Shown here piece after piece: positions 35,551 to 58,841 of a stretch of 64,000 nucleotides of DNA. Numbering within the stretch: position 1 is the first letter of the stretch; each line of letters opens with the position of its first letter. A model generated the notes under the pieces. That model saw nothing but the letters and a program-made list of their open reading frames with translations. It searched no databases and was not told the DNA's origin. The DNA is taken from assembly GCA_963663965.2 (NCBI GenBank), contig CAXXFK010000002.1, forward strand, positions 17,789-81,788. Direction: 5' to 3'. The DNA comes from Sedimentisphaerales bacterium (lineage in GTDB: Bacteria > Planctomycetota > Phycisphaerae > Sedimentisphaerales > SM23-30). The translations under genes and the position numbers were made by a program.

Positions 35551-35860
35551 TTATGAGTGTACTATTGGCGAGCGCGAGTAAATAAAAAACTGATTATGAT
35601 GGATTTTGGGAATATGGTAAAATATTTTTCGGTAGCGCCATAAAACTGGCAAGGAGTTGCGAACGCTTGAGATGTACTTAAAAAGGGTTAGCGACAACAT
35701 TGGCCCCGAGTCATATGAGTATACCGGCTACGGTATACTGTGTCTTTCCGGCAAGGGTGCGTGAAATAATTTTGGGCGGGTGGTATCATCGGGGTCATCA
35801 GTCTGGATTCGCCTGAGGTTGGCGGAGGCTGAGGTAAAAATGTTCAATCGAGGATGGCCC

Positions 35861-36256
35861 ATGAACAAGCAAAACGCTGAATTACCGGCCGAATTGGCAT
35901 CGGCCCTGGAGCAATTTACTCATTGGCGGGCAGAACATAAGCCTCCCACCCGGTTTCCTGACCAGTTATGGTCGCTGGCGGCCGAGCTGGCCAGCCGGCA
36001 CGGCCATCACCGGGTCTGTCGGGTTTTGAAGCTGGACTATTACAGTCTGAAGAAGCGTCTGGAACCCGGCTCAGCCAACCCCAAGCAAAGTCAAGCCCCG
36101 GCCTTTGTCGAGTTTCTGCCGGATAAAACCAGCTCAACCCGTTCCTGCACCATTGAATGCGAGAGCGCCCGCGGCGACCGTATCCGCATCCATCTGGATG
36201 GCAGAGACCTTTCGGAGCTGAGAATATTCTGCTCAGCGCTCTGGAGCGGTCTTTGA
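35861..36256 (+). CDS. tnpA: IS66 accessory protein TnpA
   Basis: HTH-like region, FVEF motif; TGATG overlap with tnpB. Confidence 0.8.
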   Translation: MNKQNAELPAELASALEQFTHWRAEHKPPTRFPDQLWSLAAELASRHGHHRVCRVLKLDYYSLKKRLEPGSANPKQSQAPAFVEFLPDKTSSTRSCTIECESARGDRIRIHLDGRDLSELRIFCSALWSGL

Positions 36257-38645: not shown

Positions 38646-38666
38646 GATAAGGTAAAATATTTTTCG

Positions 38667-40602: not shown

Positions 40603-40677
40603 CACATATTATAGGACACCGTAAAAACAGTCCTTCATCTGGTCGATGAAGTTTTTGAAATAGTAACCGAAAACCAA

Positions 40678-41934: not shown

Positions 41935-42249
41935 TCGTCCGATAAATTTTTGCCTCCCCTCGGGGAGGCAGGGCAGGGAGTTGTCCCTCCCTCCTCCATT
42001 GAAAGACTCTACCAGATGAAAGACTAATAAAAAATGTGCGAAAGATTCTTGACGCTACCGCCAAACAAGATGTGATTATTTCAAGACCGATTTGAATCGG
42101 TATTGCAAAAATGTCTTTGTATTTGCATGGGAAAGAATTAATGCATAAAATGGCGGAAATCAGTGATCCGAAATTGAGCTGATATTAGTTGTGTGCAGGA
42201 TTGAGTATCCGAGTATTGCTATTTGTAATGTATTATGAAATAAAGAGAT

Positions 42250-43845
42250 ATGAAAAAGTCCGGCGTGAAATCAATTTTAGTTTCGTGGTTGGGATATGCT
42301 GATTTAAAGGGCATGGCGTCATCATTGCCTCAGAAAATGCAAGCCGAAATTGCCCAGATTACTAAGCATAAGGGGGATTGGCCTACTGGTGGGATGGGGC
42401 CGGTTCAGACTTGTATTGGGCAGATGGCTTTTAAGAAGGTATATCTCCTAAGTAATTTTCCTGCAACCATTAACAGTCAATGTGCCAAGCATTATGGTCC
42501 GCAGGTTGAGATTATTCCGGTGACTTTGGAAAATCCAACTGATTACAAATCGATTTACCAAATTTCCCTAGATGCACTCCAGGCTATTACACAACGGGAA
42601 TCGAAGTCTCCACTTGAACTGTCAATGCTGTTGAGTCCCGGCACGCCGGCCATGATCGCGATTTGGATTCTGCTGGGTAAGACAAAATTCCCGGCTCGAT
42701 TCTATCAAACCTTCGATGGGAAAGTTTGGGAAACAGAAATCCCGTTCGATCTGACTCTGGATGTAGTTCCGGATCTGATGAAGGGGAGTGATGCGCTTTT
42801 TCAGCACCTTGCTTTACAAAGTCCGCAGGAAATCCCCGGCTTTGAGTCCATAATCGGTGAAAGTTATGTCATAAAAATGGCGGTTGGACGGGCCAAAAAG
42901 GCGGCTATTCGCAATGTTTCGGTATTGATTTCGGGTGAGAGCGGGACTGGAAAAGAGATGTTTGCACGAGCCATTCACCTTGCCAGTCCACGCCGTGACA
43001 AGCTTTTTGAGGCGGTCAATTGTGCTGCGCTGCCCACCGCATTGCTGGAATCGCAGCTATTTGGGCATAAAAAAGGAGCGTTTACCGGGGCAGACAAGGA
43101 TCATATTGGGTTATTGAAGTCTCTGGATGGCGGAACCCTTTTTCTTGATGAGATCGGTGAAAGCGAACTGGTTTTTCAGGCGAAATTACTGCGCGCCTTA
43201 CAGCCGCCGGCTGGGTATTCAGCCACCATACGGGAGTTTTTCCCGGTTGGGGCGGTCAAGCCGGTACGCAGCGATGTCCGGATCATTGCAGCCACCAACA
43301 AGAATCTGCTGGAGGCGATCAAGCAGGGAGCTTTCCGGGATGACCTGTATTATCGTCTGGCGGCATTAACGATCAAATTGCCGCCGCTGAGGGATCGTCA
43401 GGCTGATATTGTGATGATGGCGGAACAGTTTCTTAAGCAGATTAATGCCGAGTTTCAGGCCCTTGACCCGGGGTATAAACAAAAAAATATTTCTCCTTCC
43501 ACAAAAATATTTGTGAAAAACCATCCCTGGCCGGGCAATGTCCGGCAACTTTACAATGTTCTTTTACAAGCGGTAATCTTGTCTGACAGAGATACCATCC
43601 AAAAAGAGGATTTAATTGGGGCTTTGGCTGAGATGCCGGAAGCTGAATCCGATACCGGGTTGTTGGACCATCCTTTGGGAGAATCGTTCAGCTTGAAAAA
43701 AGTGATGTCCGAATTGGAAGTCCATTATTTGCAAAGAGCTATGAAAGAGGCGGGGGGCAAGAAAACCCTGGCGGCCAAGTTATTGGGAATGGATAATTAC
43801 CAGGCGCTGGATGCCAAACTGAAACGGTTAAATATCCAATACTAA
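42250..43845 (+). CDS. Sigma54-dependent activator with an N-terminal RtcR/CARF-like sensor domain and C-terminal HTH
   Basis: GESGTGKE, ESQLFGHKKGAFTGA, LFLDE, FRDDLYYRL, WPGNVRQL; N-terminal LENPTDY and LSPGTPAM..IW.LL...FPARF.Q parallel RtcR. Confidence 0.9.
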   Translation: MKKSGVKSILVSWLGYADLKGMASSLPQKMQAEIAQITKHKGDWPTGGMGPVQTCIGQMAFKKVYLLSNFPATINSQCAKHYGPQVEIIPVTLENPTDYKSIYQISLDALQAITQRESKSPLELSMLLSPGTPAMIAIWILLGKTKFPARFYQTFDGKVWETEIPFDLTLDVVPDLMKGSDALFQHLALQSPQEIPGFESIIGESYVIKMAVGRAKKAAIRNVSVLISGESGTGKEMFARAIHLASPRRDKLFEAVNCAALPTALLESQLFGHKKGAFTGADKDHIGLLKSLDGGTLFLDEIGESELVFQAKLLRALQPPAGYSATIREFFPVGAVKPVRSDVRIIAATNKNLLEAIKQGAFRDDLYYRLAALTIKLPPLRDRQADIVMMAEQFLKQINAEFQALDPGYKQKNISPSTKIFVKNHPWPGNVRQLYNVLLQAVILSDRDTIQKEDLIGALAEMPEAESDTGLLDHPLGESFSLKKVMSELEVHYLQRAMKEAGGKKTLAAKLLGMDNYQALDAKLKRLNIQY

Positions 43846-43894
43846 GAGGTGGAATCAATGACTGGATTTCAAAAAAATCGTGATTTTGATTTTG

Positions 43895-43910
43895 TGGCAT
43901 GGCGATTGCT
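43895..43910 (+). promoter_or_regulatory. Sigma54 (-24/-12) promoter for the hsdR operon
   Basis: TGGCATGGCGATTGCT: GG-N10-GC spacing, matches TGGCAC-N5-TTGC except one base; about 80 nt upstream of the hsdR ATG. Confidence 0.8.
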
Positions 43911-43991
43911 TTATCTTCTGGCATGGACAAAACCCTGCAACATAATCAATCAGAAGCCAGCCAACCCGAGCGACGGGGGGGCGAAGAGATC

Positions 43992-46900
43992 ATGAAATCG
44001 ATCAACTTTGAATTTCTTCGCACGGACTGGCAACAACTGGCCTCTTTGGCTGGTTTCGCGGAATATTACAGCCATCAAGATCCGGTCAGCTCCTTGATCA
44101 AGATGCGAACCTATCTGGAGCAGATCGTTGAGTTGGTTTATGACCGCTTCGGCTTTTCCCGGCCGTATAATCCCAGTCTGCATGAGTTATTGAATGCCGA
44201 TGAATTTAAGCGGGTTATTCCTACCACCGTGCAGACGATTATGCACGCTATTCGGGTTAATGGCAATCGGGCCGTCCATCGCAACGAGGGAACCACAGAA
44301 AAGGCATTACAGGCTATCAAGGATGGATTTCACCTGGCCCAATGGGTATTTCTGACCTTCACCCAGCAGGATAAATCGGCTCTGCCGGTTTACCGTGAAC
44401 CCACCCCTGAAGATTTTGGCCTGACCGCCAAGGCCGAACTCAAGCGCCAGAAAAAGAGTCTGCTGCAAAAGCTGGAAGCCCAGGAAATCCAGATGCAACA
44501 GCTTCTGGATGAACTGACCCTGGCCCGCGAGCAGGCCCAGGCCGCTCAATTATCTGAGCAGGAGATGCGGGCACAGATTCAGGCCGCCCAATATTCATGC
44601 AGCGTGCTGGATTTTTCAGAGGCTGAAACCCGAAAGTACCTGATTGATGTCATGTTGGCCGAAGCCGGGTGGCAGGTGGGCCAGAATGGTCAGAATACCA
44701 CCGAGGTGGGGCAGGAGGTGGAGATCCCGCACCAATCCACCCAAACGGGCATTGGGTATGCCGATTATGTTCTCTATGAAGAGGATGGCCATACCCCCCT
44801 GGCGGTGATTGAAGCCAAGAAAACCGCCAAAGATGTCAACGAAGGGCGCCAGCAGGCAAAATCTTATGCCGATGGTTTGGAACAGGAAACCGAACACCGT
44901 CCATTAATATTTTATACCAATGGATTCGATCTATGGCTTTGGGATGACAAGCAGGGATATGTTCCCCGTCAGATTTGGGGATTTTATTCCAAGGATAGTA
45001 TCCGGTTTGTATTGCGGCAACGATTGGCGGCTCAGGATCTGCAAACTGTCGATCTGGACTCAAACATTATTGACCGGACCTATCAGACTGAAGCAGTCCG
45101 GCGTATATTGGAGACCTTTCAGAACCGCCGGCGTAAGGCGCTTATTGTCCAGGCAACCGGAACCGGTAAAACCCGGGTGGCGATTGCCCTCAGTGAGGCG
45201 TTGATCCGGGCCGGCTGGGTTAAACGAATATTATTCCTGTGCGACCGGCGGGAGCTGAGAAAACAGGCCAAAGATACTTTTACCCGATTTTTGCCCAATG
45301 AGCCGGTGGTTTACATCAACGCCTCCACCAGTCTGCAAACCCATCACAAGGTTTATCTGGCCACCTACCCGGCGATGATGAAGTGTTACACCAACTTCGA
45401 TCCGGGCTTTTTTGACCTGATTATCGCGGATGAATCCCATCGCAGTATTTACAACCGCTACCGGGATCTGTTTTACTGGTATGATGCCCTGCAGGTAGGT
45501 TTAACGGCCACGCCGGTCAGTCAGATCCTGAAAAATACCTACGATTTGTTTGAGTGCCCGGCGGACAATCCCACCGCCCATTACGACTATGACACAGCCG
45601 TTAACGAAAAATACTTGTGTCGTTTTGAGGTCAAGACCTTTACCACACCGTTTTTACGCAAGGGAATCAAATATTCCCAGATGAGCAAGGAACAGCGTGA
45701 GCAGCTTGAAGCCCAGGAGGCCGTCCCGCAGGATATCGAATATGAGCAGAGCCTGGTTGACAAACATATCTTCAACCGGGACACCAACAAGCTGATCCTG
45801 AAGAATCTGATGGACAATGGGATCCGGATCAAGGATGGCAGCCAGATCGGCAAGACCATTATCTTTGCCCGCAGCCACAATCACGCGATTCTGTTGCAAA
45901 AGCTGTTTGATGAGATGTATCCCCAATATGGAGGTAATTTCTGCCGGGTAATCGACAATTACGATCCCCGCGCCAGTGAACTGATTGACGATTTCAAAGG
46001 GATTGGCCGCAACCATGACCTGACCATTGCCATATCCGTGGATATGCTCGACACTGGCATCGATGTACCGGAGATTGTGAATCTGGTGTTCGCCAAGCCG
46101 ATCTATTCCTATGTCAAATTCTGGCAGATGATCGGGCGCGGAACCCGGTTATGTGAAAACCTGTTTGGACCCGGCCAACACAAAACGGCCTTTCGGATTT
46201 TTGATCATTGGGGTGTGTTTGAATTTTTCGATGAGAAGTACCAGGCTACCGACGATGCCAGTACCGCCAAGAGCCTTCAGCAGTTGGTGTTTGAGGATCG
46301 CCTGAGACTGGCCCAGACCGCCCTGGATCTGCAAAAGCAGGAGGCTTTTGACTTGGCCACCCGGCTGATTCTAGAGGATATCAAGGGTCTGGATGACAAT
46401 CCATCCATCGATATCCGCAGCAAATGGCGGGATATCAAGCTGCTGCAACAAGATGGTGTGATCCGGCAATTTGCCCCGGCCACCCGGGTGGTATTGCAGA
46501 ACGAGATCGCCCCGCTGATGAAATGGCGGAATATTACCGGTCACCAGGAGGCCTATAAGTTTGACCGGTTGTGCTGTCAGTTGCAGCGGGAACTGCTGGT
46601 CGGAGGGAGCCGGTTCAATGACCTGAAGGATGAATTGCTGAATCAGGTGCATGAACTGCCCATCAATCTGAACGCGGTGCGGGCCAAAATTGCCACGATT
46701 AATCAGGTTAATTCCGGTGAGTTCTGGACTCAGCCGACGGTTGAGGATTTTGAAGCTGTCCGTGTTGAGCTCCGCGGCGTCATGAAATACCGGGACAGTG
46801 GTTCCGGACCGGGTCAGGGATTCCAGCCCAAGGTGATCGATATCGCAGAAGAAGAGGATTTGATCGAGATCAAGGATTACAAGCCCAAGATCAAGGGGCT

Positions 46901-47384
46901 GCAATTGATTGAATACCGTCATCGGGTTCAGGCGGTTTTGGAGGGTCTGATGGAAAGCTCGCCGGCGTTACAGAAAATCCGGCAGGGCGAGACCATTACC
47001 GAAGCCGAACTTAAGGAACTGGCCGCGCTGGTGGTGGCCCAGGAGCCGGACCTTAAGCTGGAGGAGCTCACCGACTATTTCCCGCAGGCCGGCTCGATTG
47101 AGGCGGCGATTCGCGGGATTGTCGGACTGGACGCCGGTCAGGTTGGCCAGCGATTCAGCGAATTTATTCAAACCCATACTCTTAACTCCACCCAGATGCG
47201 TTTTCTTGACCTGCTCAAAAACTTTATCGCCCGGCATGGCAAAATTGAGGTAAGCGATCTCTACGAGGATCCCTTTACCGCGCTTAATCCCGGGGGGATA
47301 GACGGGGTGTTCGATGGCACTCTGGCCGATGAGCTGATCCAACTGGTGGAAGAATTCAACGAAAATGAAACTACGGAGCTATAA
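43992..47384 (+). CDS. hsdR: Type I restriction enzyme R subunit (EcoAI/EcoEI-like, N-terminal DUF4145-like domain)
   Basis: ADYVL...IEAKK nuclease motif, QATGTGKT, DESHRS, GLTATP, TGIDVP, QMIGRGTR; start reset to MKSINF. Confidence 0.95.
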   Translation: MKSINFEFLRTDWQQLASLAGFAEYYSHQDPVSSLIKMRTYLEQIVELVYDRFGFSRPYNPSLHELLNADEFKRVIPTTVQTIMHAIRVNGNRAVHRNEGTTEKALQAIKDGFHLAQWVFLTFTQQDKSALPVYREPTPEDFGLTAKAELKRQKKSLLQKLEAQEIQMQQLLDELTLAREQAQAAQLSEQEMRAQIQAAQYSCSVLDFSEAETRKYLIDVMLAEAGWQVGQNGQNTTEVGQEVEIPHQSTQTGIGYADYVLYEEDGHTPLAVIEAKKTAKDVNEGRQQAKSYADGLEQETEHRPLIFYTNGFDLWLWDDKQGYVPRQIWGFYSKDSIRFVLRQRLAAQDLQTVDLDSNIIDRTYQTEAVRRILETFQNRRRKALIVQATGTGKTRVAIALSEALIRAGWVKRILFLCDRRELRKQAKDTFTRFLPNEPVVYINASTSLQTHHKVYLATYPAMMKCYTNFDPGFFDLIIADESHRSIYNRYRDLFYWYDALQVGLTATPVSQILKNTYDLFECPADNPTAHYDYDTAVNEKYLCRFEVKTFTTPFLRKGIKYSQMSKEQREQLEAQEAVPQDIEYEQSLVDKHIFNRDTNKLILKNLMDNGIRIKDGSQIGKTIIFARSHNHAILLQKLFDEMYPQYGGNFCRVIDNYDPRASELIDDFKGIGRNHDLTIAISVDMLDTGIDVPEIVNLVFAKPIYSYVKFWQMIGRGTRLCENLFGPGQHKTAFRIFDHWGVFEFFDEKYQATDDASTAKSLQQLVFEDRLRLAQTALDLQKQEAFDLATRLILEDIKGLDDNPSIDIRSKWRDIKLLQQDGVIRQFAPATRVVLQNEIAPLMKWRNITGHQEAYKFDRLCCQLQRELLVGGSRFNDLKDELLNQVHELPINLNAVRAKIATINQVNSGEFWTQPTVEDFEAVRVELRGVMKYRDSGSGPGQGFQPKVIDIAEEEDLIEIKDYKPKIKGLQLIEYRHRVQAVLEGLMESSPALQKIRQGETITEAELKELAALVVAQEPDLKLEELTDYFPQAGSIEAAIRGIVGLDAGQVGQRFSEFIQTHTLNSTQMRFLDLLKNFIARHGKIEVSDLYEDPFTALNPGGIDGVFDGTLADELIQLVEEFNENETTEL

Positions 47385-47387
47385 TCA

Positions 47388-48944
47388 ATGATAACCGGTG
47401 CCTTAAAAAACAAGATTGACAAACTCTGGGAAGAATTCTGGACCGGAGGGATTACCAATCCGCTCACCGTGATCGAGCAGATATCCTTTCTGATGTTTGC
47501 CCGCAACCTGGACCAGCTCGAGAGTATCAATGAGCGTAAGGCCCGGCGGATCGGCGGCAAGGGTGTCAAGCGGGTCTTTGACGGGCCGGATGATCCACGG
47601 CGTTGGAAGAACCTGATGCAGATATCCGAAACCGACAAGCTTTTGCGCACGGTGCGGGATGAAGTCTTTCCCCATTTCAAAGAGATCGGCGGTGAGGAGA
47701 CCACCTTCAGCGAGTACATGGCCGACGCCCAACTGATGGTCCAGAAGCCATCGCTGCTCTACAAGGCGATGAAAATGGTGGATGAGCTGCCGCTGGTGCA
47801 TTCGGACGCCAAAGGTGACCTGTACGAATTCCTGCTCAGCAAGCTAACCACCGCCGGGATCAACGGGCAGTTCCGCACACCCCGTCATATCATCGACATG
47901 ATGGTCGAGTTGCTCGATCCCAAGTCGACTGATACCATCGCCGACCCGGCCTGCGGTACGGGCGGTTTTCTGGTGCGGGCCTATGAATATCTGCGTAAGA
48001 AATATACTTCCCAGGAAGGCCAGATCGAAAATCCGGATGATCCTTCCGGCGAGCCGATCTACTCAGCCGATATGCTATCCGCCGAGGAGCGGGCTCATAT
48101 CCAGAGCGGGATGTTCTACGGCTTCGATTTCGATGTCACCATGCTGCGGATCGCCTCGATGAACCTGATCCTGCACGGGCTGGAGAACCCCAATATCCAC
48201 TATTGCGACACTCTCTCGGGAAAGATGACCGAGCTGTTTCCCAAGCTGGCGGTCAATAAGTTCGACCTGATCCTGGCCAATCCGCCCTTCAAGGGGTCGC
48301 TGGACGCCGAGGATGTGGCGCCTTCCCTGAGTGGCAAGGTCAAGACCAAGAAGACCGAACTGCTGTTCCTGGCGCTGATGGTGCGGATGCTCAAGCTGGG
48401 CGGCCGGTGCGCGGTGATTGTGCCGGATGGGGTATTGTTTGGCTCTTCCAACGCCCACCGTGATCTGCGCAAGATGCTGGTGGAGAACAACCAGTTGGAG
48501 GCGGTGATTTCGCTGCCTTCCGGGGTATTCAAGCCTTACGCCGGGGTTTCCACGGCTGTTTTGGTCTTTGCCAAGGGGGATGACACTGCCGAAGGCCAGA
48601 CCGAGCGAGTGTTTTTCTTCGATGTGCAGGCGGATGGTTTCAGTCTAGATGATAAACGAACCCCGATCGCTGACAATGATCTGCCGGATGTGGTCAGCCA
48701 GTGGAAAAAGTGGAATCATGGCGAGAAAAAGGCACTGAAGCATTTTTCGGACCGGACCCAGAACGCTTTTTTTGTGACTCGGGAGGAGATTGTTCAGCAA
48801 GGATATGACCTGTCCATCGGCCGGTATAAAGAGCATGTCTATGAAGAAGTGCAATACGATCCTCCGAAGGTTATTTTAAAGCGGTTGAAGAAGTTGGAAG
48901 AGGATATTGTTGCCGACCTCAAGGAGTTGGAGGCGATGATTTAA
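47388..48944 (+). CDS. hsdM: Type I R-M N6-adenine methyltransferase
   Basis: [29 protein letters not shown]. Confidence 0.97.
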
Positions 48945-49990
48945 TGAATCAATTCAATCCCCAATTTACCATAACCAACGCCATGACCGACGCCCTGACC
49001 CGGATCGAGCGGGCGCGGGGTTTTCTGGAGGCGGCCACGCTTTCGGAGGATTGGATTGCCCGGATGAGCCGGCGGGCGCTGTTACTTGAAGCGCATCATA
49101 CCACGCACATCGAAGGCACACAGTTGACACTGGAGCAGGCGCAGAAACTCTGGGATGGCGAAACGATCGACAATGTCAATGCTGACGACCGGCGGGAACT
49201 ACTGAACTATCGCAACGCGTTCAATCTGGTGGCGGAGTATCTCACCGGGGGCGCTCCCATTACCGAGGCCCTGATCCGGGAAATTCACCAGCGGCTGGTC
49301 GAGGGGGTACGCGGAGGCCAGGGTCAGCCGGGCCGCTATCGCACCATTCAGAATTATGTCGTCAACAGCCAGACCGACCAGGTGGTTTACACGCCCCCGG
49401 CCCCGGGCGATGTTCCAGGAATGATGCGGCAACTGGTCGAATGGCTGGCCGCCGACAGCGAAATCCACCCGGTTTTGGTTTCGGGGATCGCGCAGTTTCA
49501 ACTGGTTCATATCCACCCGTTTGTCGATGGCAACGGCCGAACTTCGCGGCTGCTTTCAACGCTGTGTCTCTATCGCAGCGGATACGACTTCAAAAGGCTG
49601 TTCACCATCAGCGAATATTATGACCGCAACCGCGGGGAATTTTATCAGGCGTTACAGCAGGTGCGCGAACGGGACATGGACCTGACTATCTGGCTGGACT
49701 ATTTCCTCACCGGCCTGGCCACCCAACTGGAAGAAACCAAACATATCGGAAAAACCGCGATCGAAATAGACATCATCGCGAACGAAAATAAGCTGAACTC
49801 CAGGCAAAAACGGGCGCTTGAGTATTTAATTATACAAGGCTCATTGACCATTGCCATCTATCAGGAACTCTGCCCCGAGGCCAATCGGCGGACATTGCAG
49901 AGAGATCTTAAAACGCTTATTGACAGTGGTTTAGTGTTGACAAGCGGGGCAACCAACAACCTGACTTACACATTAAAAGGCCGGAATTAA
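48944..49990 (+). CDS. Fic family protein with C-terminal HTH
   Basis: Canonical [12 protein letters not shown] motif; [14 protein letters not shown]. Confidence 0.93.
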
Positions 49991-49993
49991 TGA

Positions 49994-50049
49994 ACTTGCG
50001 ACATACTTGCGACATGACTCGCGACAACTCGCGACAGAGACTTGCGACA
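49994..50049. repeat. Five direct repeats ACTYGCGACA between fic and hsdS
   Basis: Copies start at 49994, 50005, 50017, 50027 and 50040. Confidence 0.85.
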
Positions 50050-50084
50050 CATCCCGCCAGTATTATTGAACGGGAGTCGAGAAT

Positions 50085-51245
50085 ATGATGACTCAAATTG
50101 TTATAAAAGAATTAGCGCCATCAAGAGGAAGCGGACAATCTTTTGGACCGGATCAATCAATTTGGTTGCTTGGTCTAGAAGATATAGAGCAGAACACCGG
50201 GCGAATCATAGAAAAAAAACGAGTTCCCGCTGGTATAGCAGGAGGTTCAACTTATGCTTTCTCAGAACGGAATGTATTATATTCAAAATTACGCCCTAAT
50301 TTGAATAAGGTTGTTTGTCCAACAGAACCGGGACTAGCTACTACAGAATTGGTGCCTCTTTGCCCGGATCCTTATCGTTTACATCGCGAATATCTGGCCT
50401 ATTATCTCCGTAGCCCCAATTTTGTAGCTTGGGCAAGTAATGCTGTGTCTGGTGCAAAAATGCCAAGAGTACAGATGACCGAATTTTGGCAGCAGACTAT
50501 CCCGATCCCTTATGCAGATAATCCAAAAAAGAGCTTAGCCGAGCAGCGGCGGATTGCGGCGATCCTGGACCAGGCCGATGGTATCCGGAAAAAACGGCGC
50601 CAGGCCATCGATGAACTGAACAACCTGATCCCCGCTATTTTTTATGATATGTTTGGGAGCCCAATAAATAGCAAGAAATGGAAAAAAGGCAAAATAGCTT
50701 CAATAGCAAATATCATTGTTCCAACGAGAGATAAACCGAAATCATTTACAGGAACAATACCATGGATTACATTGCCTGATGCGAACAATGATAGTATTTA
50801 CATATCGTCTTCAAATTATAATTTGAAACGACAAGAGGCAGAAGAAGTTGGGAATCGTCTAATGCCGAAAGGTGCTGTTATATTAAGTTGTGCAGGCAGC
50901 ATGGGCATTGTTAAAATTGCAACAAAAGAGCTCTATACTAATCAGCAATTTTACGGTCTTATTCCAAAGCCAGAACAAGTGACTTCAGAATATCTTGCAT
51001 ATTGTTTACTTCTTAGATCTCCTGAATTCTATAAAAATTTGTCGGGAACGGTAACAATTAGTTTTTTTAGTAAAGCAAAGGCATTAGACATATTGGTATC
51101 CATTCCTGAGATTAAAATGCAAAATGAATTTTCGCGGAAAGTTCAGGCAATACACCAACATATGAATAAACAATATAATTCTTTAAACATAGCAAATGAT
51201 GTTTTTAGTTGTTTAGTACAATGTGCATTTAAGGGTGGGTTATAA
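50085..51245 (+). CDS. hsdS: Type I R-M specificity subunit
   Basis: Two TRDs (LYSKLRP.L.K; ILSCAGSMG) joined by the LAEQRRIAAILD helix; ends AFKGGL. Confidence 0.92.
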   Translation: MMTQIVIKELAPSRGSGQSFGPDQSIWLLGLEDIEQNTGRIIEKKRVPAGIAGGSTYAFSERNVLYSKLRPNLNKVVCPTEPGLATTELVPLCPDPYRLHREYLAYYLRSPNFVAWASNAVSGAKMPRVQMTEFWQQTIPIPYADNPKKSLAEQRRIAAILDQADGIRKKRRQAIDELNNLIPAIFYDMFGSPINSKKWKKGKIASIANIIVPTRDKPKSFTGTIPWITLPDANNDSIYISSSNYNLKRQEAEEVGNRLMPKGAVILSCAGSMGIVKIATKELYTNQQFYGLIPKPEQVTSEYLAYCLLLRSPEFYKNLSGTVTISFFSKAKALDILVSIPEIKMQNEFSRKVQAIHQHMNKQYNSLNIANDVFSCLVQCAFKGGL

Positions 51246-52471
51246 TGAGTTATTTTGAAGATCGCTTTAAGAGCCATGCAATTCATACAACCCTTGAACA
51301 ATGCGTTGAGGCAATCAAGTTGCATGAATTGAAAGACCTCAACGAGGAGCAGGTTATCGCGATTAATCGTTGTGAGCATGTTGTAAAGTTTGCCAAAACC
51401 ATGCTCAATCGTTGCGATGCAGATTTGGTTGCTCCTGCAACGCTTGACCAACTAAATAACGCCTCTACTCAGGTACGAAATCATTGGAATCAGTTTGTCT
51501 CAAATCTAAATTGGAACATTCTAACGGCTCCATGTGATTCATTGCTTATCCAAGTATCTCAACTTAGCTCGAAGCTGCGTCCAATTCCAAAATCTTACGA
51601 CGATCTGCTAACATCCCTTCGAGACAATACCGCCGCTATGCTTCGGCAAATCCGCAAAGCTAAACAGCAGCAGGATGGAGAACTTGAAGATTTCCAATCA
51701 CGGCTGGAGGATTTCGCTCAAAAGCTCGAAACACGCGAAGCTGAGCTGGAGAAACAAAAGACTCGAATTGATGCATTGACTACTCAGCAGCAGGAAACTT
51801 TTTCAACTGCCCAGGAGACCAGAAACAAAGAGTTCTCCGCTTTCGTGTCTGAAAGAGAAACCATTTTCGAGGACAATCAAGCCGAGCATGCCTCAAAGTT
51901 TGAAGCACAACATGACCAGCAAACCAAAGCAGGTCAGGAACAAATCGATAAGCTCCAGGCCCACTGTGACCACGCAAAGGAAATTATCGGTATCATCGGC
52001 AATATCGGCGTAACGGGAAACTATCAGCGAATTGCCGATCAAGAAATGAAGGCTGCAAACACTTTTCGATGGATTGCTGTCGGGTGCTTCGGGGCGATGC
52101 TGGTTGCGGTAATTGTTGTTCTGTTTGGTTCTTTTAAGGCGGACTTCTGCGATTGGAGCATGGCGTTGTTTCGAGTATTGACAGCAGCAATATTTGCAGC
52201 TCCAGGTATCTACTGTGCTATGGAATCGAGTAAACACAGAAAAAAAGAACAACAAAATAGAAAGCTTGAATTAGAATTGGCAACAATCAGTCCATTCCTT
52301 GAAAAACTGGGCGATCCGGATAAGTCAAAGGTAATACTTGAAAAATTAGCGCCTGAATATTTTGGTAAACAATTAGGTGATGATAATGGAGTTCAATTTA
52401 CAAATATCGATTCTAAGTCTATTGAAGCGGCATTAAAACCTATATTAGAGTTGGTAAAGATACTGAAATAG
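51245..52471 (+). CDS. Hypothetical coiled-coil protein with two C-terminal TM helices
   Basis: 408 aa; start overlaps the hsdS stop. Confidence 0.7.
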   Translation: MSYFEDRFKSHAIHTTLEQCVEAIKLHELKDLNEEQVIAINRCEHVVKFAKTMLNRCDADLVAPATLDQLNNASTQVRNHWNQFVSNLNWNILTAPCDSLLIQVSQLSSKLRPIPKSYDDLLTSLRDNTAAMLRQIRKAKQQQDGELEDFQSRLEDFAQKLETREAELEKQKTRIDALTTQQQETFSTAQETRNKEFSAFVSERETIFEDNQAEHASKFEAQHDQQTKAGQEQIDKLQAHCDHAKEIIGIIGNIGVTGNYQRIADQEMKAANTFRWIAVGCFGAMLVAVIVVLFGSFKADFCDWSMALFRVLTAAIFAAPGIYCAMESSKHRKKEQQNRKLELELATISPFLEKLGDPDKSKVILEKLAPEYFGKQLGDDNGVQFTNIDSKSIEAALKPILELVKILK

Positions 52472-52498
52472 TCATACGGTATAATTAATATTAGGCAA

Positions 52499-53047
52499 AT
52501 GAAAAATATAATTGATAGTATCGTTCAGGTTTTGGTACGGCAGGCCTCGTTTTGGTCGCATGCACATGGCTGGGCGCCCAGGGAAACCGCCGAGTTATTG
52601 GAAATATGCCGGTTGGACCGCCAGGTATCTCTTGCCCATAATCTGAGGCGATGGGTGGATCAGTCTGAGGAAGAGATGCAGGAAGGGGCTTTGATATTGG
52701 CTTGGGCCAATCTGGGAGCATTAGTGGAAGGGAATATGAAGTTGTTTCTGTGTGTTTATCGGGGGGATTATATGAACTCAAGAATACTGCCTTTTGATAG
52801 AAACAGGAACGTTATAGAGCCTGATGGCCTGTTTTTTATGAAAATGATTGATTTCTATGAAAAGGAGATTTGGGATGACGCTGGAAGTAAAAAATGGGTG
52901 GATTATGCTCATAATGTGCGTAAAAGGCGAAATGCGATTCATTCCTATCAGGATAAGGAAATTGGAACCTTCGGAGACTGGGATGCTGCCTGTCGGGATT
53001 ATCTGGAATTGATTCAGCAATTGGATAGTCAGATGCCATACCCTTGA
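52499..53047 (+). CDS. HEPN-like domain protein
   Basis: Helical protein with LGALVEG (conserved E) and RKRRNAIH (R-x4-6-H motif). Confidence 0.55.
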   Translation: MKNIIDSIVQVLVRQASFWSHAHGWAPRETAELLEICRLDRQVSLAHNLRRWVDQSEEEMQEGALILAWANLGALVEGNMKLFLCVYRGDYMNSRILPFDRNRNVIEPDGLFFMKMIDFYEKEIWDDAGSKKWVDYAHNVRKRRNAIHSYQDKEIGTFGDWDAACRDYLELIQQLDSQMPYP

Positions 53048-53130
53048 TCAAAGGGGCATAAAAACTGGTTATGTTAAGCATAGAGACAAATAGGTAGTTG
53101 TGGCTCAAAAAACTCGAAAAAGAATGAGAG

Positions 53131-54606
53131 GTGATGATGGAATCGACCATAAAATGTCCGAATTGTTCGTATCAGATTGAGATTACCGAGGTGATGTCGG
53201 CGCAGTTGGCGGAGAAGATGCGGGCTGAGATGGCGGAGGAGATGGTGCCGCTGCGGAAGAAGCTGGAGCAGGAACGGGCGGAACTGGCGCAGCGGGAGGC
53301 CAGGCTGGCGGATACAGAAAAGGTGGTGAGCGAGCAGGTGGAGGCGCGGCTGGAGGAGCAGGCGAAAAAGCTGATGGCCCGGGCTAAACAGCAGGCTATC
53401 GATGAGATGGCGGTGGAACTGCGGGACCGGGATGAGCAGGTGAAGGAGATGCGGCTGAAGCTGACGGCGGCCGAGGACAAGGAGTTGGAGCTGCGGAGGC
53501 GGGAACGGAGCTTGGCCAGTGAGAAGGAGGATTTGAAAAAGCAGCAGGGGGAGATGGAAGAGGCGGGGCGGCGGGCGGCCCAGGCGGAACGGGAGAAGAT
53601 CGCCCAAGAGGTCCGGTTAATGGCGGAGGACCAGTTGGCTGGCGAAATGGCCGCTCAGCGGGAGTTGATCGCCAAACAGGATGACCAGCTTAAGGCAGCG
53701 CGCGAGGCCGAGAAGGTGTTTCTGCAGCGGGAAATGCGGTTGAAGGAGAAAGAAGAGGCTCTGGAGTTGGAGTCGCAGCGGCAGATCAGCGCAATGCGGG
53801 ACAAACTGGTTGAGGATACCCTCAAAAGGGCGCAGGAGGGCTTTGATCTGAAAGAGGCGGAGCATAACAAGCGGATGTCCGATTTGAAGGCCCAGCTGGA
53901 CGATGCCCGCCGCAAGGCCGATCAGGGCTCTCAGCAGATGCAGGGCGAGGTGATGGAACTGGCCTTGCAGCAGCTGCTGACGGAGAGCTTTCCGGCTGAT
54001 TCGATCGAAGAGGTGCCCAAGGGCGTCCGGGGTGGCGATGTGGTCCAGCGGGTGCGGACCGGGGCCGGGCTGGATTGCGGTACGATCTTGTGGGAGTCCA
54101 AACGGACGAAAAACTGGTCCGGCCAGTGGCCGGCCAAACTGCGCGAAGACCAGCGCAACGCCAAGGCCGAACTGGCTATTCTGGTCAGCGAGGTTCTGCC
54201 CGACGGGGTGGAATATTATCAGCAGCAGGAAGGAATCTGGGTGTGCAGCTGGTCCATGGCCGTTTACCTGGCGGCCGCGCTGCGCAACGGGCTGCTCGAA
54301 ACCGCCAAGGCCCGCCAGGCTCTGGAAGGCCAGCAGACCAAAATGGAACAGGTGTACAGCTACCTGGCCGGGACCGAGTTTAAGAACCGGGTGGCCGGGT
54401 TTATCGAGCCGATTGTCGGCATGAAGACCCAGCTCGACCAGGAAAAACGCGCCCTGACCAAACACTGGGCCAGCCGCGAAAAAATGCTCGACCAGGCCAT
54501 CACCGGTATCGCCGGCATGTACGGCGATTTCCAAGGGATTATCGGCGGCACCCTGCCGCAGATCGAGGCGATGGAGCTGTTACGGCTGGAAGGGGATGTG
54601 AAGTAA
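53131..54606 (+). CDS. DUF2130-family coiled-coil/nuclease-fold protein
   Basis: N-terminal CPNC, long coiled coil, GSQQMQGEVMEL, FPADSIEEVPKG..GGD, ILWESKRTKNWS. Confidence 0.85.
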   Translation: MMMESTIKCPNCSYQIEITEVMSAQLAEKMRAEMAEEMVPLRKKLEQERAELAQREARLADTEKVVSEQVEARLEEQAKKLMARAKQQAIDEMAVELRDRDEQVKEMRLKLTAAEDKELELRRRERSLASEKEDLKKQQGEMEEAGRRAAQAEREKIAQEVRLMAEDQLAGEMAAQRELIAKQDDQLKAAREAEKVFLQREMRLKEKEEALELESQRQISAMRDKLVEDTLKRAQEGFDLKEAEHNKRMSDLKAQLDDARRKADQGSQQMQGEVMELALQQLLTESFPADSIEEVPKGVRGGDVVQRVRTGAGLDCGTILWESKRTKNWSGQWPAKLREDQRNAKAELAILVSEVLPDGVEYYQQQEGIWVCSWSMAVYLAAALRNGLLETAKARQALEGQQTKMEQVYSYLAGTEFKNRVAGFIEPIVGMKTQLDQEKRALTKHWASREKMLDQAITGIAGMYGDFQGIIGGTLPQIEAMELLRLEGDVK

Positions 54607-54630
54607 ACTAAATTCAGGAGTAGCCCGGTT

Positions 54631-55101
54631 ATGAGCAGACCACAATGGCATGAAGATAATCTAGGTCAGCATTATGCCAAGAGAAGTGATGTTAACAGAG
54701 ATTGCTGGCTGGTCCAGAGTAGTTGTTCGCATAATCCGTTTACCAGGGATGAGTATCGAGCCCGCAGCGAAAAGGTATTGGATACTGCCTTTTTGATCTA
54801 TAAGGCGGAACAGTATGATGGCAAAAGACAATCCTATCGGGAAATATGTATTTACCATTATGACGATCAGTTGGTGTTGACCATTTGCGACATAATGGGG
54901 CGGAGAATCATTACCTGTTATCATCACCACCGGGTGGCGCGATTCTGCCACGATATTCTTGCGATGCCTGTGGGCGAAAGACGAATGCATTTTATAGACT
55001 GGTTATATAATTCTGAAGATGGAAAAATCATAAGGAATCTGGAGATTATCAAAGGTGAAAAAGTTATCAGAAAATATCAAAAGAAGACTCGAAAGTCTTA
55101 A
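54631..55101 (+). CDS. Hypothetical protein (may be the 5' part of a gene continuing in 55055..56176)
   Basis: RBS AGGAG; overlaps the next ORF across an A5 run. Confidence 0.55.
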   Translation: MSRPQWHEDNLGQHYAKRSDVNRDCWLVQSSCSHNPFTRDEYRARSEKVLDTAFLIYKAEQYDGKRQSYREICIYHYDDQLVLTICDIMGRRIITCYHHHRVARFCHDILAMPVGERRMHFIDWLYNSEDGKIIRNLEIIKGEKVIRKYQKKTRKS

Positions 55102-56176
55102 AATAGTCTTGGGGATATTGAAATCGCTGGATGATACTTATCCTCCTGACGCAATTATCGATGCCGATGAATTGCTAGGGCCAGACAGCCCGGTCCGCTT
55201 TTGGGTATTAGTAAAGCATCTTCTGGAAGATTATTATCTGCTAAAAGGATATCTTGATCGCTTGTGCCGACTATATGGCCAAAACTGCGAAGTTTGGCCG
55301 GGTGGACAGATCGGCATGACTCTGAAACGATGCGAAGAGTTTATTCGGGAGATATGTCAGGCGCCAGTAATCGACAGGATTATCGAAAGCTATCAGGAGC
55401 CTGTTGGCCGGGCGACCGGTAATAATCCAGATGAGGTATTCGATGTTCTTATTTATCGGCATATCCGCCGGGAAGTCCTAACTGGTTTAAATGGATTAAA
55501 GGGAGAGACTTGGAAGGCAGATGTTACTTCTGACGACGGAACTCTTGGCGATTGGATACCAAGGGAATGGAACGATAAGCAACAAACGGATTTAACCTAT
55601 TTTGTCGGAAATTACTGTCGTACCTATTGTCTTTATCCTTGGCAGTATAACGATGAATCGAATGACAATGTACTGATCAATTATTTGAAAAAGAATGGGA
55701 GAACCTTTATGAAAGATCGATTAAACTGGGATTCATTGATGCCTGGGGCTTATGAATTGCTGCATGGCATAGATGTTTTTCTTTATGAAGAGGGTTATGA
55801 TGAGTTATTTACAATATTGACAGATCCGGATTACCGGGGGGGGCATTCAAGTTTGACCGGGCGGGTAGGAGAAGCCATTAATATCATTCCCGGACAGGCG
55901 GGTGATAAATGCTGTCCGACCTTGCTGGCCCTTTCAAAAGGTGGTAAAAAGGGCAAATATGGATTTGATACTATCATGAAACAGGTCAAATTGCATTTGA
56001 TTAAATGCTCCGGTATAACAAATCAGGTTATATTTATTTGTAACTTCTGGGACAGCAAAACATTCAAGAGTGAGCATATCGATGAGATTCGTGCTTATGA
56101 AAAATACAAAGAGATTAAATTCCTGTTTTTAATGGTTGGTTCGGATGGTAGGAGCATAAGCCAGGTCAATATATAA
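55055..56176 (+). CDS. Hypothetical protein
   Basis: 373 aa open frame; no clear RBS of its own. Confidence 0.6.
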   Translation: MKKLSENIKRRLESLKIVLGILKSLDDTYPPDAIIDADELLGPDSPVRFWVLVKHLLEDYYLLKGYLDRLCRLYGQNCEVWPGGQIGMTLKRCEEFIREICQAPVIDRIIESYQEPVGRATGNNPDEVFDVLIYRHIRREVLTGLNGLKGETWKADVTSDDGTLGDWIPREWNDKQQTDLTYFVGNYCRTYCLYPWQYNDESNDNVLINYLKKNGRTFMKDRLNWDSLMPGAYELLHGIDVFLYEEGYDELFTILTDPDYRGGHSSLTGRVGEAINIIPGQAGDKCCPTLLALSKGGKKGKYGFDTIMKQVKLHLIKCSGITNQVIFICNFWDSKTFKSEHIDEIRAYEKYKEIKFLFLMVGSDGRSISQVNI

Positions 56177-56204
56177 TGCAATTGTATTTTCTGTCAGGTG
56201 AGCT

Positions 56205-57909
56205 ATGTTAACAAAAATCGAGATCGAAAACTTCAAAGGGATTGGCGACCGGATATCGGTGCCGATCAAGCCGATAACGCTGCTGTTTGGCGCCAATAGT
56301 GCCGGCAAGAGTACCATAATGCAGGCGTTGCATTATGTGGGCGAGATACTCGAACGGCAGAATGTGGATGCCGGCAGAACCGCCCGGGGAGGCAGCGGTA
56401 TTGATTTGGGTGGGTTTGCCGAACTGGTTCATAAAAAAGATATCGGTCGAGCTATTGCCATTCGGCTGGAATTTGAGTTAGATGGTGAATCCCTTAAGGA
56501 CTATTTGGCCGACGATAAGTATGTCAATGCGTTTGAAATTCGTTTTGAGGAAGACAGCGCCGCGTTGGGCGATACTGATTATCAGTTTAATCGGGTACAA
56601 TCGTTTTGGGTAGAATTGGAGATCGGCTATAGCTATTTTGTTAAACAACCTAATGTGACAAGATATTCAATCGGTGTAAATGGAAAACGGTTGGCAACAT
56701 TACACTACAAGCCAGGAAGTATTTATGCATATATTGAAAGCATCGACGAAGATCATGAAGTGTTCAGGGTAGATAGTGTACCATTTGATAATCCGGGAGG
56801 CGGAATCTCTGTGAATATCGCCACCAGCGCTTATGCCCGTTGTGGATCGCAAGCACCTTCGTCAAAATTATCCAATGCTCCATTGCAGTTTAAAACCAAT
56901 GCGATTTATGGCGCATTACCGCGATTGAATGAAATTCTTGAGTTTCCTGATTTAGTGCCGGATCCCTCCATGTATGAATCTGGAAACGGTCATTCCTCGC
57001 ATGACGAAAAAGGACCAGGAGGAATATGAGGAACAGGATGCCTATGTAGCCGGGAAGGTGTTGATGCGGTTGCTGACTCAATATCTGGTTGCGCCGGCGG
57101 AATATGCCCGGGATTTCTTAAAGGGAATACGATATGTTGGGCCCTTACGGGCGGTTCCGCCAGCCAATTACCATAAGCCGAGGATTGTTGATGAGTCGCG
57201 CTGGGCCGATGGCATGGCGGCATGGGATTGGCTGGGTACGGCCGGAAATGAGTCGTTTTCGGCTGAGGTGAGCGAGTGGTTGAGCCGAGAGGATCGCCTT
57301 AATACTGGTTATGAGTTGACCGTCACTTCAGTCAGGGAAATTGACCAGAAAACCCAGGACTGGATGATGCGCACAGAATGGGATGAAGACGATGATTCAA
57401 AATCTGACAATTCGCTGGTGGTGGATTTGGACCGAATTCCAGCCAAGCAAAAGATTCAACTTTACGATGTAGCCAGGGATACCTATGTTTGCCCCAATGC
57501 AGTGGGTATTGGGATATCGCAGGTAATTCCGGTGATTGGAGCCATTGTGGCCGATGGCGCCTCCCTGGTTCAGGTTGAACAGCCAGAGTTGCATTTGCAC
57601 CCAACCCAGCAAGCCGCTTTGGGCGATTTGTTGATCGCGGGTATCAGGCAATACAAGAAGTTGCTGTTTATTGAGACGCACAGCGAACATATGATCCTAA
57701 GGCTTCTCCGCCGAATTCGGGAAACCTCCAAGGAAATGGTTCCAGACGCCTTGTTAAGTCTGACACCTGAGGATGTGGCGGTTTTGTATCTTCGATCTAA
57801 AGACGGACAAACGGGAGTCAGGATTATTGATGTTGATAAAAATGGCGATTTTGTCCAGCCGTGGCCGGATGACTTTTTTGATCAGGATTTTCATGAGAGG
57901 TTTGCCTGA
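56205..57909 (+). CDS. ABC-type (AAA_15/AAA_21, DUF3696-like) ATPase, split by a 1-nt frameshift
   Basis: IENFKG and GANSAGKST in the first frame; GIGISQ, EQPELHLHP, ETHSEH, WPDDFFD in the second. Deleting one A from 57007-57011 fuses them. Confidence 0.85.
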
Positions 57910-58841
57910 TGTATACTGAAATAGCGTTTACGCCGCAGATATTCGATGAGGAATGCAATCCAGACCATGAAAGATGGCGCGAAGGCCTTCGTGAGTTTGG
58001 CAGAGAAATCGCGCCACGAAATGCTGCGGAGCCGATTATAATCTCCGATTTATATGGCGGCAGCTCCCTGCAGGTGGCTGCTGAAACTATTCGGGCCATC
58101 AGGGATCATAAGGCTAAAGATTTGGCCCAACGCTGTATTTCAGTAATGCGGCAACGTCTGTCAGTGGTTAGGCCAGTTGTAGGCGAATGGCCCCAGTCTG
58201 AACCAGACTGGTTGGACGAATGTAAACTGTCGCACGCTCAGTTAGCATTGGGAAAGGTCCTGATCAGCGATTCACATTCACAAGATAACCTTCACTCAAT
58301 GCCATCCTGGTCCATTTACGATCCGGCGGATGACCAGAGTGGATTCTGGAATGGTATTCAAATCCAGAGTCAAGTGAATATGAACCTTGATGACCAGGTG
58401 AACCTTTTGAGGCCGATCTGTGTTCATGCGGATTACATTGCCATAAAATCGCCGCAGATAAGAGGTGGCAGCGACGATGAAACGGTTTTTGCGGCCAGAA
58501 TTATTCAATCTGCCCTTAACAGGCCGTTCGGCTATCCAGATATCAAAATGATCGAATTCCATCTGGATGGCAAACACAATCCCAATCATGATAATTCTAT
58601 TAACAATATTATCCAAGTTGTACGGCAAAATGTTGGGAGGGAAAGGAATGGATTGGAAATCCAATTCTACTTTTGGCCGCATTATACTGACCGTGAATTA
58701 GTGGCTGGAATTTTCAAGCAAGGTATAAAAAGTCTTCGTTGGGGTATCAGCATGAATCATATTGCCAGGCCAAGAGATGCTACGGGGATCTACGACTTGG
58801 AATATAATTGCCCAAAAGAAATTGACAGATGTGGAAGTTGA
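57909..58841 (+). CDS. Hypothetical partner of the ABC ATPase
   Basis: TGATG coupling to the ATPase; 310 aa. Confidence 0.65.
   Translation: MYTEIAFTPQIFDEECNPDHERWREGLREFGREIAPRNAAEPIIISDLYGGSSLQVAAETIRAIRDHKAKDLAQRCISVMRQRLSVVRPVVGEWPQSEPDWLDECKLSHAQLALGKVLISDSHSQDNLHSMPSWSIYDPADDQSGFWNGIQIQSQVNMNLDDQVNLLRPICVHADYIAIKSPQIRGGSDDETVFAARIIQSALNRPFGYPDIKMIEFHLDGKHNPNHDNSINNIIQVVRQNVGRERNGLEIQFYFWPHYTDRELVAGIFKQGIKSLRWGISMNHIARPRDATGIYDLEYNCPKEIDRCGS

What the first reader, a model, noticed from the sequence alone, without database searches (positions are those of the whole stretch)
42250..58841. RtcR/CARF-like sigma54 activator wired to a type I R-M plus toxin operon
Seen: an activator with an intact GAFTGA loop, then 50 nt downstream a near-consensus -24/-12 promoter, then about 15 kb of tightly packed co-oriented genes starting with hsdR. 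Established: RtcR uses a CARF domain to sense RNA fragments with 2',3'-cyclic phosphate ends, and sigma54 promoters are silent without an activator. CARF-bEBP genes near R-M loci have, to my recollection, been noted in comparative genomics. Inference: an inducible defence operon switched on by a nucleic-acid damage signal. The HEPN-like gene could generate the ligand. This raises the question of how methylation is maintained before induction, for example through an internal promoter.
Basis: partly seen in the sequence, partly recalled or inferred. Interest (0 to 1): 0.78.

Follow-up and report, generated by a model that had tools for sequence, protein, structure and literature searches.

The report
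Restriction-operon switch with enhancer inside activator
A known but untested kind of sensor-activator gene sits in front of a restriction and defence operon with a real sigma-54 promoter, and the activator's likely binding site appears to be written into its own protein-coding sequence, which gives a simple way to test whether these bacteria switch restriction on only when alarmed.

Summary
The gene at 42250-43845 is an intact CARF-AAA+-HTH sigma54 activator (PADLOC RtcR_PspF2, not RtcR proper). It is followed 49 nt later by an exact -24/-12 site and 14.85 kb of co-oriented genes: hsdR-hsdM-fic-hsdS, a HEPN-fold gene, DUF2130 and a Menshen NsnB/NsnC-like pair. The promoter is conserved in 35 of 43 homologous loci that have hsdR next, and in 0 on the reverse strand. 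The wiring was predicted in print (Makarova 2014, Bell 2024), and this scan met it before in at least 9 other genomes. New here is a tandem ACAA-N6-TT(G/C)T site inside the activator's own codons 411-422, about 414 nt upstream of the promoter. It shows strong synonymous-codon constraint, tracks the downstream promoter (43 of 53 against 4 of 26; contrasts r=0.53; independent-pairs test not significant), and recurs in 24 of 27 held-out Pseudomonadota loci. It is most likely the enhancer. The ligand is untested. The HEPN gene is not a conserved partner, and no internal hsdM promoter was found. Verdict: new member of a known kind, with an apparently undescribed dual-coded enhancer.

The parts
42250..43845 (+). 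CARF-AAA+-HTH sigma54 activator (RtcR_PspF2 / PspF-like family), 531 aa, GAFTGA intact
   Evidence: PADLOC PDLC01995 E 8.5e-156 over residues 8-529; Pfam Sigma54_activat and HTH_8; N-terminal 195 aa weakly match Cas_Csm6_CARF, E 0.011
43480..43513 (+). Tandem inverted-repeat site (ACAA-N6-TTCT-N6-ACAA-N6-TTGT type, 15 of 16 positions) inside activator codons 411-422; proposed enhancer (UAS), 414 nt upstream of the sigma54 site
   Evidence: Positional peak, synonymous constraint, co-occurrence with the promoter, rare in the genome, absent from 13 other sigma54 activators
43895..43910 (+). Sigma54 -24/-12 promoter TGGCATGGCGATTGCT; predicted +1 near 43921
   Evidence: conserved in homologous loci; identical in the C6 paralog
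43992..47384 (+). hsdR, type I restriction subunit with N-terminal DUF4145 (HEPN-like, recalled) domain; nuclease and helicase motifs present
   Evidence: PADLOC REase_I E 1e-284; Pfam; motifs
47388..48944 (+). hsdM, N6-adenine methyltransferase ([12 protein letters not shown])
48944..49990 (+). Fic protein (SoFic-like), intact [12 protein letters not shown] and an (S/T)xxxEG inhibitory motif
   Evidence: PADLOC SoFic E 5e-66; motifs
50085..51245 (+). hsdS specificity subunit; 30% identical to the paralog's HsdS while R and M are 84-94% identical
51245..52471 (+). 408 aa coiled-coil protein with a C-terminal two-helix hydrophobic part, weak SLATT_1 hint
   Evidence: Pfam SLATT_1 E 0.046, below cut-off; a lead only
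52499..53047 (+). 182 aa HEPN-fold protein, putative RNase, conserved R144-N145-x-I147-H148
   Evidence: 435 relatives; H148 invariant in 101 aligned; model pLDDT 96; HEPN structures dominate the top matches at Z 8.3-9.8; Foldseek not significant
53131..54606 (+). DUF2130 coiled-coil protein, shared with the C6 paralog (81%)
   Evidence: Pfam E 1e-62
54631..55101 (+). 156 aa unknown protein
   Evidence: No family; one homolog at 31% in L049
55055..56176 (+). 373 aa unknown protein
   Evidence: No family; only itself; partial 29% hit in L049; Atlas best score 0.75
56205..57909 (+). ABC ATPase AAA_15 + DUF3696 (NsnB / PDC-M55A-like), in two ORFs with a frameshift near 56985
   Evidence: this part is one frame in the C6 paralog
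57909..58841 (+). Conserved partner of the ATPase, NsnC-like with a possible PLD-like (MIT_C) C-terminal domain; frameshift near 58785
   Evidence: Atlas clusters at 0.95, one with MIT_C in 17% of members; PB-PLD1 description in PMC12065111

Best explanation
A portable, signal-gated defence cassette. The activator is made from its own upstream promoter and held inactive by its CARF domain (inferred from RtcR). Its HTH binds two inverted-repeat sites, 20 bp apart, that lie inside its own coding sequence about 0.4 kb upstream of the sigma54 promoter (inferred from conservation). When a nucleic-acid-type ligand binds, most likely an RNA end with a 2',3'-cyclic phosphate (analogy only), it oligomerises, loops to sigma54-RNA polymerase at 43895 and opens transcription of hsdR-hsdM-fic-hsdS and the accessory genes. 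Because the promoter abuts the stop codon there is no intergenic room for an enhancer, so putting it in the gene makes activator, enhancer and promoter one 1.7 kb unit that works ahead of any cargo. Basal methylation more likely comes from weak read-through from the activator's promoter than from a conserved hsdM promoter (inferred, weak). Shown here: sequence, conservation, codon constraint. Not shown: binding, transcription, induction, ligand, defence.
For: Promoter within -30..+200 of the stop in 47 of 79 non-redundant loci and in 35 of 43 with hsdR next; reverse strand 0, inside gene 0, shuffles 0.2. Held-out Pseudomonadota set: 26 of 27, reverse 0. ACAA-N6-TTGT occurs upstream of the activator in 39 of 74 regions (shuffle maximum 3-6), with a second peak 350-400 nt before the stop in 43 of 73 (one mismatch). 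Six of the top 8 of 256 codon columns for synonymous bias lie in 412-422; Ser415 is TCT in 46 of 64 against 7.0 expected. Held-out set: site at 13 of 16 or better in 24 of 27 against 3 of 27 control windows; codon 421 is CTT in 14 of 14 against 2.2 expected, although the residue changes from Phe to Leu. Promoter present with 43 of 53 site-positive and 4 of 26 site-negative loci; contrasts r=0.53, controls 0.05 and -0.13. Only 4 positions in the genome score 15 or more, and two are inside the two paralogous activators; 13 other activators score 6-12. rpoN is present. No rtcB beside the activator; rtcB is on C15.
Against: No expression, binding or phenotype data. The independent-pairs test on well-supported branches had 7 pairs and was not significant (median p 0.69). 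The degenerate pattern was fixed after seeing the first alignment with its promoter labels, so only the held-out set is a blind test, and that set was not dereplicated. The upstream copy of the array is weak in this locus and its paralog (11 of 16, control level) and reaches 13 in only 5 of 27 held-out loci, so the tie between motif and this HTH is indirect. 32 of 79 loci lack a strict downstream promoter. About 0.4 kb is longer than the usual 80-150 bp (recalled). No intrinsic terminator was called between activator and hsdR, so read-through could matter more than assumed.
Confidence: 0.68

Rival explanations
1. Sigma54 control is real, but the activator is in practice always on or responds to a host growth or stress cue (a small nucleotide or a protein partner), so the operon is not damage-inducible. 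The CARF domain tunes rather than gates.
For: A type I methyltransferase must act every replication round, and no conserved hsdM promoter was found. The sensor is far from RtcR. Kotta-Loizou 2022 reports low-affinity tRNA-fragment binding and a need for RtcAB binding in E. coli (passages), and no rtcAB is linked here.
Against: The CARF domain is strongly conserved (SPGTPAM nearly invariant in 120 homologs), and the same switch heads varied toxic cargoes, which favours gating.
Confidence: 0.17
2. The intragenic repeat is not the enhancer. It is a site for a host DNA-bending or nucleoid protein, or an autoregulatory roadblock, and the true enhancer is the array upstream of the activator, acting over 1.7 kb.
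For: Enhancers acting over 1.5-1.7 kb are reported for RocR and SoxR (PMC4941409, passages). The upstream array exists in about half of the first set (38 of 77 at 13 or more).
Against: The upstream array is at control level here and in most held-out loci, while the internal site and the promoter persist. Several loci with only a divergent promoter lack the internal site. The spacing differs from the IHF consensus (recalled).
Confidence: 0.1
3. The operon is expressed mainly by sigma70 read-through from the activator's promoter or the upstream IS256; the sigma54 site and the repeat are inherited passengers in this copy.
For: Co-oriented genes, no terminator called between them; an IS256-family element ends about 190 nt upstream of the activator.
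Against: Promoter and internal site are both kept in two paralogs whose activators are only 61-62% identical and across several phyla.
Confidence: 0.05

Closest known systems
R-M-associated PspF-like / RtcR_PspF2 CARF-AAA+-HTH activators (Makarova et al. 2014, PMC4012209; PADLOC PDLC01995)
   Same: Same domain layout and profile. The window's CARF domain hits the very Polaromonas gene listed in that paper's supplement (NC_008757 126975-128513). The supplement shows activator-hsdR-hsdM-hsdS-AAA/DUF3696 in Desulfobacterium autotrophicum. The paper predicts sigma54 activation of the downstream genes and a cyclic-phosphate RNA or phage-nucleotide ligand.
   Different: In the passages and supplement parts seen, no promoter or binding site is identified ('promoter' has 0 hits in its 10 supplements).
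RtcR-headed defence superoperons with CoCoNuTs (Bell et al. 2024, PMC11090510)
   Same: RtcR homolog at the 5' end of long co-oriented defence trains with type I R-M; proposes cyclic-phosphate RNA, HEPN feedback and internal promoters.
   Different: No McrBC/CoCoNuT was found among the 13 ORFs scanned here. The passages seen invoke an upstream activating sequence only by analogy.
RtcR of E. coli and Salmonella (rtcBA RNA repair operon)
   Same: CARF-AAA+-HTH sigma54 activator; ligand is an RNA with a 2',3'-cyclic phosphate end (PMC9879122).
   Different: Below the family cut-off (296 against 650). Co-oriented rather than divergent. Targets restriction genes; rtcB is unlinked.
RocR (Bacillus subtilis rocG) and SoxR (B. 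thuringiensis): sigma54 enhancers at unusual places
   Same: Activator sites far from, or downstream of, the promoter (PMC4941409).
   Different: Those sites are described as intergenic or 1.5-1.7 kb away. Here the site is inside the activator's own reading frame and constrains its codons.
Menshen NsnB-NsnC (PMC12065111)
   Same: AAA_15 + DUF3696 ATPase followed by a partner with a possible MIT_C/PLD-like domain.
   Different: No ParB-DUF262 NsnA among the 13 ORFs scanned.

Membership tests
RtcR_PspF2 / PspF-like CARF activators | Full-length match to the CARF-AAA-HTH profile | tested here: met
   PDLC01995 E 8.5e-156, profile positions 2-480 of 481
RtcR_PspF2 / PspF-like CARF activators | Next to R-M or other defence genes, not rtcBA | tested here: met
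RtcR_PspF2 / PspF-like CARF activators | Ligand binding by the CARF domain | not testable with these tools
   Needs a binding assay; no solved structure matched the domain by sequence
RtcR (RNA repair activator) | Score over the NCBIfam NF038308 cut-off | tested here: not met
   295.8 against 650 bits
RtcR (RNA repair activator) | Divergent from rtcBA | tested here: not met
   rtcB lies on contig C15; no -24/-12 site above 9 of 12 in the 700 nt scanned at its 5' end
Sigma54-dependent operon | -24/-12 site at the right place, conserved | tested here: met
Sigma54-dependent operon | rpoN in the host and intact GAFTGA | tested here: met
   TIGR02395 over cut-off
Sigma54-dependent operon | Transcription start depends on rpoN and the activator | not testable with these tools
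   Needs start-site mapping or a reporter
Type I R-M | hsdR, hsdM, hsdS with catalytic motifs | tested here: met
HEPN RNase (52499-53047) | HEPN fold | tested here: inconclusive
   HEPN chains dominate the top VIA-align rows (Z 8.3-9.8, rmsd 3.2-4.7, about 120-155 aligned), but these values are under the level the tool trusts for helical bundles; no Pfam or Foldseek significance
HEPN RNase (52499-53047) | Conserved Rx4-6H motif | tested here: met
   RRNAIH at 143-148; R144 and N145 at 90% or more, H148 invariant
Menshen | ParB-DUF262 NsnA beside NsnB and NsnC | tested here: not met
   No such hit among the 13 ORFs

The most novel reading that the evidence does not exclude
Across several bacterial phyla, this activator family carries its own sigma54 enhancer inside its reading frame. 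Gene, enhancer and promoter therefore form one self-contained alarm switch that puts whole type I restriction systems, methyltransferase included, under the control of an RNA-damage signal. Restriction would be an induced response, and the HEPN-like DUF4145 domain at the start of HsdR could feed the signal back.
Probability: 0.35. Interest if true: 0.75.

Novelty: new member of a known kind. Interest (0 to 1): 0.5.

Why it matters
Restriction-modification is usually treated as always on. A signal-gated type I system was predicted in 2014, and my searches found no test of it. The candidate enhancer makes that prediction directly testable without knowing the ligand: silent changes in about six codons should cut activation and leave the protein untouched. 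The site also gives a sequence marker for which way a family member points, and a clear bacterial case of DNA doing double duty as protein code and enhancer.

Tried and rejected
Conserved sigma70 promoter before hsdM: 3 of 29 against 3 and 4 in controls. The window scan of sigma70 sites (33 against 23.5 +/- 5.1) and terminators (15 against 18.2) gave none that mark the hsdR-hsdM junction. Second internal sigma54 promoter in this operon: best 10 of 12; the related locus L015 does have one. Enhancer between stop and promoter: no peak. Protein constraint or base composition as the cause of the internal motif: rejected, because synonymous positions are fixed, the residue varies, the score does not follow GC3 (rho -0.04) and other activators lack it. 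Motif co-varying with the HTH helix: a trend (YQTLD with ACAA/TTGT, YQTLN with ATAA/TTAT) but confounded with clade. Independent-pairs test not significant. Sequencing runs: no RNA holder listed; listed contigs do not span the two frameshifts. Single-sequence fold of the HEPN gene failed (pLDDT 45). One search was a self-comparison of no value. No solved structure of the CARF domain by sequence. No phage record covers the full activator. No attR copy of the tRNA-His end was found on this contig. Makarova et al. 2020, the likely source of the PADLOC model name (recalled), was not held and may bear on novelty. PMC3224125, PMC2725144 and PMC4676750 held nothing relevant. Complex prediction was not used.
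Full report
Observation. The ORF at 42250-43845 encodes 531 aa with a sigma54 AAA+ domain, intact GAFTGA and a Fis-type HTH. Its best profile is PADLOC RtcR_PspF2 CARF_AAA_HTH over the whole length (E 8.5e-156). It scores 296 against the RtcR cut-off of 650. TGGCATGGCGATTGCT at 43895-43910 is the only exact match to the recalled sigma54 consensus in the window (0.08 expected) and one of 19 in the genome. hsdR starts at 43992. It is followed by hsdM, a SoFic-like gene, hsdS, a coiled-coil membrane protein, a 182 aa gene, DUF2130, two unknown genes, an AAA_15/DUF3696 ATPase and its partner, with gaps of -56 to 94 nt. The genome has rpoN and an unlinked rtcB. A short-read contig confirms 42031-46131 letter for letter; both runs laid are one sample and may be the source of the assembly.

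Context. A paralogous cassette lies on contig C6, with an activator 61-62% identical, the same 16-base promoter, HsdR and HsdM 84-94% identical, HsdS 30% identical and partly different cargo. It has frameshifts in the activator, hsdR and the ATPase N-terminus. The window has single extra bases at about 56985 and 58785 where the paralog is in frame, and the listed contig pieces do not span them. Assembly error is likely but unproven. The cassette sits in an island that begins at tRNA-His (16744-16818) with an integrase, a vWA-PP2C-kinase triad, a NACHT protein, IS66, a group II intron and IS256.

Promoter conservation. An alignment of seven CARF domains fetched 34 loci from genomes and the best 80 of 331 from metagenomes. 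Of these 114, 29 had an incomplete gene and 3 too little downstream DNA; 3 near-duplicates were dropped, leaving 79. A site with fixed GG and GC and at least 7 of 8 other positions lay within -30..+200 of the stop in 47 of 79, in 35 of 43 with hsdR within 450 nt and in 12 of 36 without. Reverse strand 0, inside the gene 0, shuffles 0.2. A divergent site upstream of the activator occurred in 22 of 79. The 27 loci with a phylum on record were mostly Planctomycetota (16), with six other phyla.

The candidate enhancer. Palindrome counting found ACAA-N6-TTGT in 39 of 74 regions upstream of the activator (shuffle maximum 3-6), often as a tandem with a 20 bp period. Mapping it along 73 loci gave an exact peak at the gene start (36 loci in one bin) and a second, one-mismatch peak 350-400 nt before the stop (43 loci), at codons 411-422. 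Among 256 codon columns in 77 rows, six of the top eight for synonymous bias lie in 412-422: Ser415 TCT 46 of 64 (7.0 expected), Leu414 CTT 27 of 42 (6.9), Phe421 TTT 55 of 64 (27.4), Lys412 AAA 57 of 70 (30.9), Ala418 GCA 27 of 55 (10.0), Val422 GTG 30 of 43 (13.6). The other two are AGC serines. Kinship inflates these z-values (median 1.4). With a 16-position tandem score, fixed after I had seen that alignment and its labels, the window scores 15 at 43480 and the paralog 16. Loci scoring 13 or more have the downstream promoter in 43 of 53, the rest in 4 of 26; the spacing is 363-439 nt in 42 of those 43. On a quick tree built without those columns, the independent-pairs test had 7 pairs and was not significant. 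Independent contrasts on the scores gave r=0.53 (76 contrasts, 42 same sign, 15 opposite, p about 1e-6, approximate for bounded scores), against 0.05 for the reverse-strand control and -0.13 for GC3.

As a blind test I took 29 further loci from Pseudomonadota plasmids and genome samples and dropped 2 partial ones; the set was not dereplicated. The site reached 13 in 24 of 27 (control window 3 of 27) and the promoter reached 10 of 12 in 26 of 27 (reverse 0). The top three codon columns were again 421, 418 and 415; codon 421 was CTT in 14 of 14 leucines (2.2 expected), where the first set has Phe. Only four positions in the genome score 15 or more, two of them in the two activators. Thirteen other sigma54 activators score 6-12 at the same place. 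Against: the upstream array is at control level in this locus and its paralog (11), reaches 13 in 38 of 77 of the first set and in only 5 of 27 held-out loci. No binding was measured.

Ligand and methylation. The 182 aa protein has 435 relatives. An alignment of 101 of the 150 listed shows RNxIH conserved. Its model (pLDDT 96) matches mostly HEPN structures at Z 8.3-9.8, with no significant Foldseek or Pfam hit. It is a likely HEPN RNase, but a homolog lay downstream in only 2 of 82 loci (many short) and not in the paralog, so it is cargo rather than a fixed partner. The DUF4145 domain of HsdR has an RxxGNxxxH motif here and in 28 of 40 loci examined. It is a more constant candidate, untested; its HEPN kinship is recalled. 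No conserved sigma70 promoter precedes hsdM (3 of 29 against 3 and 4). Read-through from the co-oriented activator is the simpler source of basal methylation, and known protection of type I systems against self-cleavage (recalled) may cover induction.

Literature. Makarova 2014 (PMC4012209; passages, a search of 10 supplements, and part 1 of 3 plus searched rows of supplement 5) describes this family, links it to R-M and predicts sigma54 activation and the ligand. It lists the Polaromonas gene that the window's domain hits. Bell 2024 (PMC11090510; passages) describes RtcR-headed superoperons, HEPN feedback and internal promoters. PMC9879122 and PMC9650030 (passages) give the RtcR ligand evidence; PMC12065111 (passages) the Menshen domains; PMC4941409 (passages) distant enhancers; PMC7159879 only a reference. 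Eight full-text searches (listings only, apart from the papers named) showed no experimental test of this family and no binding site inside its gene. Subscription papers and Makarova 2020 were not available, and Bell's supplements were not read. The scan's own index holds 11 similar findings in at least 9 genomes and none under words for an intragenic enhancer; only short extracts of those notes were visible, and two mention binding sites or an operator array.

Verdict. The locus is real and belongs to a known kind. The added value is the dual-coded candidate enhancer, which makes the untested 2014 prediction easy to test. Interest 0.5.

Noticed in passing
G000:C6:245547-260564 (L001): Second copy of the cassette in the same genome: different HsdS, a 255 aa gene between hsdR and hsdM, DUF6338, and a DruF-like gene cut by an IS. 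Frameshifts in the activator, hsdR and the ATPase.
   Followed up: partly
window 38659-42060: A group II intron and an IS256-family element lie side by side. Both occur at over 99% identity as neighbours on C6, C25 and C28 (IS inverted) and 1.3 kb apart on C21, which suggests the IS targets the intron's end or they move together.
   Followed up: no
window 16744-36000: tRNA-His with an adjacent integrase, RuvB-like ATPase, radical SAM protein, TerY-like vWA-PP2C-kinase triad (23454-26613) and a 1335 aa NACHT-HEAT protein (31543-35550): an integrated defence-rich island.
   Followed up: partly
L015:12713: A second exact sigma54 site lies inside the operon, ahead of later cargo genes, in a related locus.
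   Followed up: no
L014 (= L055 region), 1123-3306: The activator has only a divergent sigma54 site, pointing at genes that by eye resemble JAB/ThiF-type proteins (recalled, not scanned), and no internal site.
   Followed up: no
L019:2961-6493, L137, L146: Related activators head vWA-PP2C-kinase gene trains, not R-M; L019 carries a sigma54 site at 4568.
   Followed up: no
L136-L165: In the Pseudomonadota set the -12 element is mostly TCGC, TAGC or TGGC rather than TTGC, and the internal site tends to ATAA...TTAT.
   Followed up: partly
G000:C7:158727 and C7:39717 (- strand): The two other high-scoring tandem sites in the genome (16 and 15 of 16); context not examined.
   Followed up: no
window 55055-56176: A 373 aa ORF with no full-length relative among 5.8 billion proteins. 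With its neighbour 54631-55101 it has a distant match in L049 at the same operon position.
   Followed up: partly
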